Translations under genes and position numbers: made by a program
Origin: Patescibacteria group bacterium
GTDB taxonomy: Bacteria > Patescibacteriota > Minisyncoccia > UBA6257 > GWB1-50-10
Length of the DNA stretch: 64,000 nt
Direction of reading: 5' to 3'
Assembly (NCBI GenBank): GCA_040757555.1
Contig: JBFLWN010000001.1
Span: forward strand, 53,128-117,127
The notes under the pieces: model-generated
Databases searched by the model: none
The model's input: only the letters and a program-made list of their open reading frames with translations
Told to the model about the DNA's origin: nothing
Shown: positions 30,408 to 31,322 of the stretch, piece by piece
How the letters are laid out: each line of letters starts with the position of its first letter
Position numbering within the stretch: the first letter of the stretch is position 1

Positions 30408-30557
30408 CTAGTAACCGGTAACCAGTAATTGGTAACAGCGAAGAAAAAATCCCATATATTTCACGTTAAAGTTATTAATATATGTGGATGCATTATTATT
30501 ACTTTCTAGTCACTTTTTATCAGTTACCACCAAGGGCTTGACAAAATATGGTAAAAC

Positions 30558-30586
30558 TTGATTTTTGGGGAGGAGTGTGCTATAAT
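30558..30586 (+). promoter_or_regulatory. Sigma-70-type promoter, copy 3 of module, driving mini-peptide + HExxH operon
   Basis: -35 TTGATT / TGCTATAAT, same module as 28786 and 32342. Confidence 0.6.
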
Positions 30587-30653
30587 ACAAACAGTAAAGA
30601 ATTAGATAACTAATTCAAATTTAAAACAAATCGACTACGAGGAGGTGAAAACA

Positions 30654-30749
30654 ATGTTTGCGATATATGTCGATAAGCCGGGACCCCATCCGGGACCGAA
30701 AGGACCGGGAAAACCGAATCCAAAACCACCCGGACCAAAGCCGAAATAA
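30654..30749 (+). CDS. 31-aa Pro/Gly/Lys-rich mini-peptide (MFAIYVDKPGPHPGPKGPGKPNPKPPGPKPK)
   Basis: Strong RBS GAGGAGGTG 7 nt upstream; 6 nt before next gene. Confidence 0.5.
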   Translation: MFAIYVDKPGPHPGPKGPGKPNPKPPGPKPK

Positions 30750-30755
30750 CATGAT

Positions 30756-31322
30756 ATGATAAAGAGGTATTTTAAATACCTCTTTTGTTTTATGAAAAAA
30801 CAAGTTTATGTTTTTAGAAAATATAGTGGGATAGAAATTGGAGCAAAGAATGAAGAAGAAATAGCGCGGATTAAAAAGGCTTTGCAATTTGTACGAACAC
30901 GGGGGAAAAAATTTTTTATTCCAATACAATTTCTCAAGTCAATTCTTGTGCGTCCCAAGGGGAAATATAATAATCTTCTCTTTCCGAGGGAGGGGGTATA
31001 TGTATGTGAACCCGGAACGATAAATGAATCTTCAAAATCATATCTCGGTTCGCTTTTTGTACACGAGGGAACACACATGAAGCAGTACATCTGGAAAAGA
31101 AAATACAAGGGGAATGGTGCTGAACAGGAGGCATACATGACTCAGAGGAAATTTCTTAAAATTCACGGATCAAAAGATGAAGTTGAGTGGCTCGATTCAA
31201 TGTTTAAAGATAAGTGGTGGGTGAAAAAGAAAATGGAAAAAGGCAAAAAAAATATAATGCGAGATACAGATAAAAAACTCATTCAGTTTTGTGCCAAATA
31301 CATAAATGGGAAATTAAAGTGA
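30756..31322 (+). CDS. Hypothetical HExxH-motif protein (putative small zinc metallopeptidase)
   Basis: 'LFVHEGTHMKQY' HExxH; co-oriented with mini-peptide. Confidence 0.45.
   Translation: MIKRYFKYLFCFMKKQVYVFRKYSGIEIGAKNEEEIARIKKALQFVRTRGKKFFIPIQFLKSILVRPKGKYNNLLFPREGVYVCEPGTINESSKSYLGSLFVHEGTHMKQYIWKRKYKGNGAEQEAYMTQRKFLKIHGSKDEVEWLDSMFKDKWWVKKKMEKGKKNIMRDTDKKLIQFCAKYINGKLK

What the first reader, a model, noticed from the sequence alone, without database searches (positions are those of the whole stretch)
30537..31322. Pro/Gly/Lys-rich 31-aa mini-peptide co-transcribed with an HExxH protein from a triplicated promoter
The mini-ORF MFAIYVDKPGPHPGPKGPGKPNPKPPGPKPK has a near-ideal RBS and stops 6 nt before a 188-aa protein carrying HEGTH. 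Both sit behind copy 3 of a strong promoter module that also drives the two T9SS-tail paralogs. This could be a second precursor/peptidase pair, or a PG-rich secreted or antimicrobial peptide. The minus-strand 102-aa ORF overlapping it has no RBS and is probably spurious.
Basis: seen in the sequence. Interest (0 to 1): 0.55.

Follow-up and report, generated by a model that had tools for sequence, protein, structure and literature searches.

The report
Conserved proline-rich mini-peptide with zincin partner
A 31-residue proline/glycine/lysine-rich peptide gene that no annotation records is real, under strong purifying selection, and was followed by a hairpin and a gene for an uncharacterised zinc-protease-like enzyme in all ten loci examined from uncultivated bacteria, two of them named to different phyla, so it is probably a new peptide-plus-enzyme system of unknown product.

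Summary
The mini-ORF (30654-30749, +) is real. It sits behind one of exactly three copies of a strong promoter module and has an AGGAGGTGA ribosome-binding site.

- **Selection.** In a relative, 10 of 11 nucleotide changes in it are synonymous (P≈8e-6), while the downstream enzyme is only 78% identical.
- **Gene start corrected.** The HExxH gene starts at 30792 (176 aa), not 30756 (188 aa). The 42-nt gap holds a terminator-like hairpin, and the enzyme gene has no ribosome-binding site.
- **Conservation.** The same layout occurs in all 10 family loci recovered with upstream sequence. These include an Omnitrophica genome, and enzyme identity falls to 20-40%. None of 76 control ORFs has such an upstream mini-ORF. 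The layout is: strong RBS, then a 22-36-aa Pro/Gly/basic peptide with a P-[KR]-P-P core, then a hairpin, then an HExxH gene without RBS.
- **Enzyme.** It belongs to an unnamed family of about 175 aa with invariant H, E, H, E and Q. The AlphaFold model (pLDDT 93) has a gluzincin fold.

Best reading: an abundantly made peptide that is the dedicated substrate of a low-abundance zincin-like enzyme, similar to a minimal RiPP precursor/enzyme pair.

Rivals are a cis-acting leader peptide, a peptide inhibitor of a zincin, and oxidative (αKG-HExxH-type) rather than hydrolytic chemistry.

The function is unproven and the family is undescribed.

The parts
30533..30618 (+). Copy 3 of the promoter module: -35 TTGATT 30558-30563, extended -10 TGcTATAAT 30578-30586, upstream TTGACA 30538-30543
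   Evidence: Inverted-repeat pairs I1 and I2, three-way alignment, promoter scan, and exactly 3 matches of the core against 0 expected.
30599..30616 (+). 5'-UTR stem-loop GAATTAGATAACTAATTC, part of the shared module
   Evidence: It is folded in the MFE and centroid structures. Copies 1 and 2 read GAATTGGATACCCAATTC, a G-C to A-T compensatory change. The same hairpin precedes the T9SS-tail gene and the mini-ORF in the relative.
30640..30648 (+). Shine-Dalgarno AGGAGGTGA of the mini-ORF
   Evidence: Read from the sequence. An equivalent strong SD precedes the mini-ORF in 9 of the 10 related loci; L008 has only GGAG.
30654..30749 (+). Mini-ORF, 31 aa: MFAIYVDKPGPHPGPKGPGKPNPKPPGPKPK
   Evidence: Against L002 it shows 10 synonymous and 1 non-synonymous change, P=7.5e-6. 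Homologous peptides occur in 9 other loci (alignment A7). It is absent from the protein collections, so it is unannotated.
30761..30791 (+). Terminator-like hairpin AAAGAGGTATTTTAAATACCTCTTT followed by TGTTTT, between the two genes
   Evidence: Terminator scan. Fold energy is -14.1 kcal/mol with z = -3.8. The stem is conserved in L001-L003 and only the loop changes. A hairpin occupies this position in all 10 loci.
30792..31322 (+). Gene for a 176-aa HExxH...E zincin-like protein (HEGTH at residues 91-95, third ligand E111); no Shine-Dalgarno upstream
   Evidence: Start fixed. The family has 87 representative clusters with invariant H91, E92, H95, E111 and Q118. AF2 pLDDT is 92.9. The fold matches gluzincins.
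31371..31402 (.). Terminator hairpin between the HExxH gene (+) and the convergent T9SS-tail paralogue (-); it was scored on the minus strand only, and use by the plus-strand unit is inferred from the palindromic stem and the downstream T-run
   Evidence: Terminator scan, minus-strand hit. The plus-strand reading comes from the sequence.
30621..30929 (-). Spurious 102-aa antisense ORF
   Evidence: It is interrupted by stop codons in the relative L002 and L001.

Best explanation
This is a two-gene peptide/enzyme cassette.

**Proposed mechanism**
- A strong sigma-70-type promoter, a 5' stem-loop and a near-perfect ribosome-binding site drive abundant synthesis of a 31-aa cationic, proline-rich peptide. 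Its conserved core is DKPGPH...GPGKP...P[K/R]PP followed by a basic tail.
- A hairpin just after the stop codon ends or attenuates most transcripts. In this genome the hairpin has a U-tract and looks like a leaky intrinsic terminator.
- Only read-through RNA carries the next gene, which has no ribosome-binding site. The enzyme is therefore made in much smaller amounts than the peptide.
- The enzyme is a cytoplasmic, roughly 175-aa gluzincin-like metalloenzyme (HExxH plus a Glu on the next helix).
- The peptide is proposed to be its dedicated substrate, processed by cleavage or trimming at or near the proline-rich core to give the active product. The logic matches RiPP precursor/peptidase operons.

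**Shown here**
- The peptide is translated and strongly constrained.
- The gene order, hairpin and RBS asymmetry are conserved across distant genomes.
- The enzyme has a zincin fold and an invariant metal site.

**Inferred**
- The enzyme acts on the peptide.
- The reaction is hydrolysis.
- The hairpin sets the peptide-to-enzyme ratio.
- What the mature peptide does is unknown.
For: **Purifying selection on the peptide**
- Window vs L002: 10 synonymous and 1 non-synonymous change (P=7.5e-6).
- L009 vs L011: 11 and 1 (P=5e-6).
- L007 vs L009: 12 and 2 codons.
- The peptide is always more conserved than the enzyme: 97% vs 78%, and 95% vs 73%.

**Conservation of the pair**
- All 10 loci with upstream sequence have a Pro/Gly-rich mini-ORF of 22-36 aa with a Shine-Dalgarno-like sequence (strong in 9, only GGAG in L008). 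In each it is followed by a hairpin of -12 to -34 kcal/mol and then an HExxH gene without SD, 42-87 nt downstream.
- The loci include Omnitrophica WOR_2, and their GC content ranges from 31 to 57%.
- Control: 0 of 76 other long ORFs in the same DNA have such an upstream mini-ORF.

**The peptides are homologous, not merely similar in composition**
- They share DKPGPH, GPGKP and P[KR]PP.

**The enzyme**
- It has 87 representative clusters with invariant H, E, H, E and Q.
- AF2 pLDDT is 92.9, with the HExxH helix and the Glu helix in the expected order.
- Members give weak hits to the clan-MA-like families DUF6647 and DUF6782 (PMC11467057).

**Expression signals**
- Codon usage in the mini-ORF is ordinary or preferred; for example, all Gly codons are GGA.
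- From my own knowledge: a hairpin between a precursor gene and the enzyme genes is the usual arrangement in nisA, mccA, pqqA and lasso-peptide operons.
Against: - No experiment or structure shows that the enzyme touches the peptide.
- The conserved neighbourhood contains no transporter, RRE domain or known RiPP class-defining enzyme.
- The peptide has no obvious leader/core division and no export signal.
- Only 3-4 of the 10 hairpins have a good U-tract, so 'terminator' may not apply generally.
- Enzyme and peptide are both basic, which is unusual for an enzyme/substrate pair.
- The same architecture (uORF, hairpin, gene) also fits a cis-regulatory leader.
Confidence: 0.5

Rival explanations
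1. The mini-ORF is a cis-acting leader or arrest peptide. Ribosomes slow at the conserved P-[K/R]-P-P motif, which depends on EF-P or on nascent-chain contacts. Their position then decides whether the downstream hairpin forms, and so how much read-through reaches the HExxH gene. This would resemble tnaC, speFL and mgtL/mgtP.
For: - The layout of uORF, hairpin and gene occurs in all 10 loci.
- Every peptide has a PP-containing motif 2-7 codons before the stop.
- All peptides are 22-36 aa and would fit inside the ribosomal exit tunnel.
- The HExxH gene has no promoter of its own.
- From my own knowledge, sequence-conserved arrest peptides are known.
Against: - The distance from the stop codon to the hairpin varies from about 4 to 28 nt, with no fixed register.
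- No conserved alternative (antiterminator) pairing was seen.
- The last residues vary (K, R, E, S), whereas the N-terminal and central parts are the most conserved: MGNGNRP is identical in 3 loci and DKPGPH in 4.
- Codons are not rare.
- The regulated gene lacks an SD in all loci, unlike genes controlled by known arrest peptides.
- The promoter is one of the strongest-looking in the window and is shared with secreted proteins.
Confidence: 0.2
2. The peptide is an inhibitor (antitoxin-like or pro-peptide in trans) of a potentially harmful zincin. The protease-resistant proline-rich peptide occupies the active-site cleft and is made in excess, so that free enzyme appears only when peptide synthesis stops.
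For: - The upstream, over-expressed small partner and the downstream, weakly expressed enzyme match the stoichiometry of type II toxin-antitoxin pairs.
- The best PDB sequence hit of the family profile is the VgrG2b metallopeptidase effector domain, at an E-value of only 0.3.
- One member gives a weak Tox-MPTase5 hit.
- In L006 the cassette lies beside HicAB.
- The family has a patchy distribution across phyla.
Against: - A strong hairpin or terminator between the two genes is unusual for toxin-antitoxin pairs.
- Antitoxins usually evolve faster than toxins, but here the peptide is the more conserved partner.
- There are no PADLOC hits.
- Several loci sit in housekeeping contexts.
Confidence: 0.12
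3. The pair is the same, but the chemistry differs. The HExxH protein would be a non-hydrolytic Fe/alpha-ketoglutarate oxygenase of the recently found αKG-HExxH kind, and would hydroxylate Pro, Lys or Asn residues of the peptide.
For: - αKG-HExxH enzymes have a zincin-like fold and hydroxylate Asp, His, Gln and Pro in RiPPs (PMC12636437, PMC13060819).
- H91, H95 and E111 could form a 2-His-1-carboxylate site.
- The substrate is proline-rich.
Against: - No NCBIfam model matched, including the αKG-HExxH model, which I recall as TIGR04267. IPR026337 is the family cited in PMC12636437.
- No sequence similarity to 8s5f was found even at E<=10.
- The protein is roughly half the size of the solved αKG-HExxH domains it matched (342 and 409 residues).
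- No invariant basic residue is available to bind αKG.
- From my own knowledge, Patescibacteria are mostly anaerobic fermenters, which makes an O2-dependent enzyme less likely.
- The top Foldseek hits are all peptidases.
Confidence: 0.1

Closest known systems
RiPP precursor/enzyme operons with an attenuator hairpin after the precursor gene (for example mccA-mccB, nisA-nisB, pqqA-pqqB; minimal two-gene clusters such as the biarylitides)
   Same: - A very short, strongly expressed peptide gene lies directly upstream of its enzyme gene.
- A hairpin between the two lowers enzyme expression.
- Peptide and enzyme are conserved together.
   Different: - The enzyme family is not a known RiPP class-defining enzyme, and no RRE domain was detected.
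- No transporter is conserved nearby.
- The peptide is conserved along its whole length rather than having a conserved leader and a variable core.
- No modification is known.
- The operon examples are recalled from my own knowledge and were not tested here.
Gluzincin metallopeptidases, especially M1 catalytic domains (LTA4H, ERAP) and minigluzincins (proabylysin, selecase)
   Different: - Sequence identity is only 7-19% in the structural alignments.
- No curated family matches above threshold.
- The spacing is HExxH-x15-E.
- The protein is a single-domain 175-aa protein that is always paired with a mini-peptide gene.
Pfam DUF6647 / DUF6782 (uncharacterised HExxH families proposed for clan MA)
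   Same: Weak matches occur around the HExxH...E region in 26 and 16 of 48 members. DUF6647 is argued to belong to peptidase clan MA (PMC11467057).
   Different: The window protein scores 11.9 bits against a cutoff of 24.1, and no member was shown to reach the gathering score. It is therefore at most a distant relative and not a member.
Insect proline-rich antimicrobial peptides (oncocin/pyrrhocoricin type I; apidaecin type II)
   Same: - The peptides are short, cationic and Pro-rich.
- The window peptide has VDKP, as in oncocin.
- Type-B peptides (MGNGNRP...PRPPKK) recall apidaecin GNNRP...PRPPHPRL.
   Different: - The type II pharmacophore PRPPHPRL, with a penultimate Arg and a terminal Leu, is absent (PMC11549390).
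- V of VDKP is not conserved in other members.
- These peptides are encoded by bacteria as single mini-genes, not as insect polyproteins.
- Ribosome binding was not tested.
Leader/arrest-peptide attenuators (tnaC-tnaA, speFL-speF, mgtL/mgtP)
   Same: A short conserved uORF is followed by a termination element ahead of an enzyme gene, and proline codons are prominent as in mgtL/mgtP (my own knowledge).
   Different: - There is no fixed register between the stop or stall site and the hairpin.
- The C-terminus is variable.
- No antiterminator was found.
- The downstream gene lacks an SD.
Pro-Pro endopeptidases (PPEP-1/Zmp1, family M34)
   Same: - Both are small gluzincins.
- In both, the substrate is encoded next to the enzyme.
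- The PPEP cleavage motif xxP|PxP resembles the conserved P[KR]PPxP (my own knowledge; a lead only).
   Different: - No ATLF/M34 Pfam match appears among the 25 most frequent of 28 families hit by the 48 members scanned.
- There is no signal peptide.
- PPEPs are secreted and cut surface adhesins.

Membership tests
Zincin / gluzincin metallopeptidase fold (clan MA) | HExxH motif on an active-site helix | tested here: met
   H91, E92 and H95 are invariant in 48 family members and lie in helix 82-100 of the model.
Zincin / gluzincin metallopeptidase fold (clan MA) | Third metal ligand Glu on the following helix | tested here: met
   E111 is invariant and lies in helix 108-125. The geometry could not be inspected because no coordinates were returned.
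Zincin / gluzincin metallopeptidase fold (clan MA) | Overall fold similarity to solved zincins | tested here: met
Zincin / gluzincin metallopeptidase fold (clan MA) | Membership of a curated peptidase family (Pfam/NCBIfam above threshold) | tested here: not met
   The window protein has no Pfam or NCBIfam hits. Only sub-threshold DUF6647 and DUF6782 matches occur among members. No PDB sequence hit has E below 0.3.
Zincin / gluzincin metallopeptidase fold (clan MA) | Peptide-bond hydrolysis | not testable with these tools
   This needs the recombinant enzyme and the synthetic peptide.
RiPP precursor + tailoring/processing enzyme | Short precursor gene next to the enzyme gene, with the two conserved together | tested here: met
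   Found in 10 of 10 loci and upstream of 0 of 76 control ORFs.
RiPP precursor + tailoring/processing enzyme | Known class-defining enzyme or RRE domain | tested here: not met
   No Pfam or NCBIfam family matches the enzyme.
RiPP precursor + tailoring/processing enzyme | Leader/core organisation of the peptide | tested here: inconclusive
   The N-terminal 3-7 residues vary and the remainder is conserved. No cleavage site can be assigned.
RiPP precursor + tailoring/processing enzyme | Post-translational modification of the peptide | not testable with these tools
   This needs mass spectrometry.
αKG-HExxH peptide hydroxylases (IPR026337, the family named in PMC12636437; I recall the NCBIfam model as TIGR04267) | Match to the family model or to ChlH (8s5f) | tested here: not met
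αKG-HExxH peptide hydroxylases (IPR026337, the family named in PMC12636437; I recall the NCBIfam model as TIGR04267) | Fe(II)/αKG-dependent oxidation | not testable with these tools
   This needs a biochemical assay.
[quoted passage not shown] | C-terminal pharmacophore PRPPHPRL (penultimate Arg, terminal Leu) | tested here: not met
   The peptides end ...PKPPGPKPK...PRPPKK...PRPPNPKE and similar. The requirement is taken from PMC11549390.
Leader/arrest-peptide transcription attenuator | uORF followed by a terminator ahead of the regulated gene | tested here: met
   Only the architecture was tested.
Leader/arrest-peptide transcription attenuator | Fixed register between the stall or stop site and the RNA switch, or an alternative antiterminator pairing | tested here: not met
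   The distance from stop codon to hairpin is 4-28 nt, and no conserved alternative structure was seen.
Type II toxin-antitoxin pair | Adjacent, translationally coupled genes without an intervening terminator; match to known TA or defence families | tested here: not met
   A hairpin lies between the genes in every locus. There are no PADLOC hits.
Pro-Pro endopeptidase (M34) | ATLF/M34 domain and a signal peptide | tested here: not met
   ATLF is not among the 25 most frequent of the 28 Pfam families hit by the 48 members scanned. The N-termini start directly at the first conserved strand.

The most novel reading that the evidence does not exclude
These mini-genes might encode bacterial counterparts of ribosome-targeting proline-rich peptides. 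The short cationic P[K/R]PP peptides would act in the ribosomal exit tunnel, either on the producer's own ribosomes or on those of a host or prey cell. The two named lineages are, from my own knowledge, ultra-small bacteria (Patescibacteria, Omnitrophota) thought to depend on other cells. The dedicated zincin would then serve as maturation enzyme or as self-protection. This would be a new class of ribosomally made effector in episymbiotic or predatory bacteria.
Probability: 0.08. Interest if true: 0.9.

Novelty: new variant of a known kind. Interest (0 to 1): 0.66.

Why it matters
Small-peptide genes are routinely missed. This one is absent from the NCBI annotation of its own genome and from nearly all protein collections. 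Even so, it is among the most strongly constrained sequences in the locus, and it recurs with the same partner in Patescibacteria and Omnitrophica and in eight further unclassified loci.

The finding links an uncharacterised family of about 175-aa zincin-like enzymes (87 clusters at 50% identity, with no matching Pfam or NCBIfam family) to a candidate substrate. That makes the family's function directly testable with a synthetic 22-36-mer and one recombinant protein.

If the peptide proves to be a bioactive product, it would be a very compact peptide-natural-product system, found in lineages whose biology is largely inaccessible because they are uncultivated.

Tried and rejected
**Ideas tested and rejected**
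- **Chance or non-coding explanation.** Rejected by the synonymous-substitution pattern and by the control of 76 ORFs. Rfam found nothing in the region.
- **188-aa reading with a 6-nt junction.** Rejected by the in-frame stop in relatives.
- **Stop-codon read-through or fusion of peptide and enzyme.** The two are in frame in only 6 of 10 loci. L002 has a second in-frame stop, and none of the N-terminally extended family members carries the peptide.
- **Leaderless transcript for the enzyme gene.** A TGTATAAT lies before the ATG in L004 only and is not conserved.
- **Link to the neighbouring radical-SAM/SPASM cluster.** The two nearby HExxH proteins are unrelated (hhalign probability <1%). The rSAM next to the L006 cassette is only generically similar, at 26%. 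Other loci have no rSAM.
- **T9SS-tail protein as a third conserved component.** The window and L004 proteins share only the C-terminal sorting domain, and it is absent from L006-L008.
- **Defence-system or phage origin.** There are no PADLOC hits, no meaningful PHROG hits, and no family member in viral contigs.
- **Rare-codon attenuation.** Codon usage in the mini-ORF is ordinary.
- **Additional copies.** There is no second family member or second Pro/Gly-rich mini-ORF in the window.

**Searches that failed or were limited**
- Searching the large protein database with the peptide is impossible because the minimum query is 40 aa.
- The afdb50 fold library is unavailable.
- The genome and metagenome scans returned only one locus each.
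- The Nat Chem 2024 αKG-HExxH structure paper is not held.
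Full report
**What is in the window**

Positions 30654-30749 (+) encode MFAIYVDKPGPHPGPKGPGKPNPKPPGPKPK. The ATG is preceded by AGGAGGTGA (30640-30648).

Upstream lies an 86-nt module (30533-30618). It also occurs, inverted, at 28763-28848 and 32310-32395, with 87-88% identity.
- A 32-nt core is identical in all three copies and occurs nowhere else in the window (3 matches, 0 expected).
- The module holds -35 TTGATT, a 17-nt spacer and an extended -10 TGcTATAAT.
- It also holds a transcript-proximal stem-loop. Copies 1 and 2 read GAATTGGATACCCAATTC and copy 3 reads GAATTAGATAACTAATTC, a compensatory G-C to A-T change.
- The other two copies drive two paralogous proteins with T9SS C-terminal sorting domains.

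No other Pro/Gly-rich stretch of this kind exists in any frame of the 64 kb.

**Correction to the gene junction**

The mechanical ORF from ATG 30756 gives 188 aa. NCBI's record for this organism, a Patescibacteria MAG, and a 78%-identical metagenomic homologue both give 176 aa.

In three independent contigs of that relative (L001-L003), the frame opened by the equivalent of ATG 30756 closes after six codons. The enzyme gene therefore starts at ATG 30792.

The 42 nt between the genes hold a hairpin (30761-30785, about -14 kcal/mol, z = -3.8) followed by TTTTGTTTT. This is a terminator-like element. Its stem is unchanged in the relative, and only the loop differs.

ATG 30792 has no Shine-Dalgarno sequence. 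No promoter-like site lies between the module and the end of the gene. Any enzyme mRNA must therefore come from read-through. A palindromic terminator hairpin at 31371-31402, scored on the minus strand, probably closes the unit.

**The mini-ORF is translated and constrained**

| Comparison | Mini-ORF changes | Probability by chance | Enzyme gene |
|---|---|---|---|
| Window vs L002 | 11 differences: 10 synonymous third-position, 1 non-synonymous (A3S) | 7.5e-6 | 37 synonymous and 39 non-synonymous codon differences |
| L009 vs L011 | 11 synonymous, 1 non-synonymous | 5e-6 | 73% identical (peptide 95%) |
| L007 vs L009 | 12 synonymous and 2 non-synonymous codons | not computed | 65% identical |

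The antisense 102-aa ORF is broken by stops in the relative. Rfam finds no RNA family there.

**The pair is conserved far beyond close relatives**

A full HMMER scan of 1.84 billion representatives found 87 clusters of proteins of about 170-180 aa. H91, E92, H95, E111 and Q118 are invariant, and Y84, Q98, A114, Y115, F121, L122 and W143 are nearly so.

Genomic context could be recovered for ten distinct loci:
- the window;
- L001-L003;
- L004, from Omnitrophica WOR_2 GWA2_47_8;
- L005;
- L006-L008;
- L009-L011.

Enzyme identities among these loci range from 20 to 78%, and locus GC from 31 to 57%.

In every one there is a 22-36-aa Pro/Gly/basic mini-ORF with a Shine-Dalgarno-like sequence. That sequence is strong (GGAGGTGA or GGGGGTGA type) in nine loci and only GGAG in L008. 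In each locus the mini-ORF is followed by a stable hairpin of -12 to -34 kcal/mol and then, 42-87 nt after the stop, the enzyme gene without a Shine-Dalgarno sequence.

The same detector applied to the upstream regions of 76 other long ORFs in the same DNA found nothing.

The peptides are homologous rather than merely similar in composition.
- Type A includes MFAIYVDKPGPHPGPKGPGKPNPKPPGPKPK, MPERDKPGPHPWPRDPGKPQPKPPAPKPGR, MLLLADRDKPGPHGPPGTPGPGKPSPRPNPPPKPGK, MAKGGGNPWRGPGKPNPNPRPKPPKGGRKPK and MGKDKGRGGNPNKGPGKPPAPKPPKPPKGK.
- Type B includes MGNGNRPSKPGTGNGVPRPPKK, a variant ending ...RK, and MGNGNRPTPPGTGNGVPRPPNPKE.
- Nearly all share G-x-G-x(2-6)-P-[KR]-P-P followed by a short basic tail; L010 has NPPP in place of P-[KR]-P-P, and L007 ends in ...NPKE.

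Only two of the peptides exist in the 15-billion-protein collection, and none has a name. Pfam and NCBIfam do not recognise any of them.

**The enzyme**

No Pfam, NCBIfam or PDB sequence match reaches significance for the window protein. Across members there are sub-threshold matches to DUF6647 (26 of 48) and DUF6782 (16 of 48). DUF6647 has been argued to belong to peptidase clan MA (PMC11467057).

AlphaFold2 with the 48-sequence alignment gives pLDDT 92.9 and pTM 0.89. The model has a beta-sheet subdomain, the HExxH helix (82-100) and the Glu helix (108-125).
- Foldseek ranks LTA4H, tricorn F3, IRAP/ERAP and the minigluzincins.

It is therefore a small, cytoplasmic gluzincin-like metalloenzyme. 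Neither the N-termini in the alignment nor the model show a signal peptide.

**How it most likely works**

The signals are asymmetric in every locus. The peptide gene has maximal translation signals, and in this window a strong promoter that is shared with secreted proteins. A hairpin follows, and the enzyme gene has no ribosome-binding site. This is the signature of a product made in bulk with a catalyst made in trace amounts, as in precursor/enzyme operons of ribosomal peptide natural products.

The peptide is more conserved than the enzyme, is conserved over nearly its whole length, and uses ordinary or preferred codons. Together these points favour a functional peptide that is the enzyme's dedicated substrate (confidence about 0.5).

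Three steps are inferred and not shown: that the enzyme acts on the peptide, that the reaction is hydrolysis, and that the hairpin sets the ratio.

**Rivals**

- **Cis-acting leader or arrest peptide (about 0.2).** It fits the uORF-hairpin-gene layout and the ever-present PP motif. It is weakened by the variable distance from stop to hairpin (4-28 nt), the variable C-terminal residues, the absence of a conserved alternative pairing, and the missing SD on the supposedly regulated gene.
- **Inhibitor or antitoxin-like peptide (about 0.12).** It fits the stoichiometry and the weak similarity to toxin-type metallopeptidases. It is weakened by the intervening hairpin, by the peptide being the slower-evolving partner, and by the lack of defence-family hits.
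- **Oxidative rather than hydrolytic chemistry (about 0.1).** This cannot be excluded on fold alone.

**Comparison with known systems and novelty**

The architecture is of a known kind: a mini-precursor plus an enzyme with an attenuator between them. Neither partner belongs to a described family.

The literature searches found no description of this pair. The resemblance to insect proline-rich antimicrobial peptides (VDKP...; GNxNRP...PRPP) is a lead only, because the type II pharmacophore PRPPHPRL is not present (PMC11549390).

I rate it a new variant of a known kind, with interest about 0.66. It is a real, unannotated peptide family, seen here in two named phyla, that gives an orphan enzyme family a testable substrate.

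Noticed in passing
window 32477-35694: A separate RiPP-like cluster. It comprises a radical-SAM/SPASM maturase (32477-33766, +), a 52-aa Asp/Cys-rich peptide ending ...DCDCYDCDFNCEECDTDHFA (33792-33950, +), and two HExxH proteins with no family match (33981-34829, -, HEISH; 34813-35694, +, HELLH). These HExxH proteins are unrelated to the 176-aa family (hhalign probability <1%). Whether they are αKG-HExxH-type hydroxylases was not resolved.
   Followed up: partly
window 30599-30616, 28765-28782, 32312-32329; L001 980-997: The shared promoter module carries a transcript-proximal 7-bp stem-loop with a compensatory G-C to A-T change between copies. In the relative L002 the mini-ORF keeps this hairpin and the leader, but the -35/-10 part is replaced by unrelated sequence. 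The relative's T9SS-tail gene keeps the full module.
   Followed up: partly
window 27842-28735 (-) and 31401-32282 (-): Two paralogous secreted proteins with T9SS C-terminal sorting domains in a Patescibacteria genome. They were duplicated together with their promoter, signal peptide and terminator (repeats D1-D3, 83-95% identical). The N-terminal domains have no family match.
   Followed up: no
L012 2764-2928 and L013 2476-2634 (IMG/VR viral contigs, GC 67-70%): These are 52-54-aa ORFs beginning M..AGPGKPGPKPPRRY, followed by a CxxCxGxG zinc-ribbon. They lie just after an XRE-type HTH gene. They share the GPGKPxPKPP string with the window peptide but sit in a different context. A nearby HExxH partner was not looked for.
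   Followed up: partly
protein P0082 (from the representative search): A distant homologue (E 2.6e-4) with a signal peptide, a long Pro-rich linker (PAPAPQPAP...) and HDxxH in place of HExxH. It may be a secreted, possibly inactive branch of the family.
   Followed up: no
L006 1960-4650 and 5907-6389: In this high-GC locus the cassette is transcribed divergently from radical-SAM/SPASM and YcaO genes, and HicB/HicA genes follow it. The rSAM is only 26% identical to the one in the window.
   Followed up: partly
L007 2733-4462; L009 3-1046: In L007 the type-B cassette (MGNGNRP... peptides) follows an ECF-type sigma factor gene and a DUF5667 gene (precomputed Pfam hits). In L009 the upstream 347-aa ORF, which runs off the contig end, looked similar by eye but was not scanned.
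   Followed up: no
window 29025-30407 (-): A 460-aa protein with an N-terminal membrane anchor and no family match, apart from a weak DUF3978 hit. It is transcribed divergently from the mini-ORF promoter region. Short repeats of TAGTAACCGGTAACCAGTAATTGGTAACA-like sequence flank several promoters here (repeat families D4, I3, I4).
   Followed up: no
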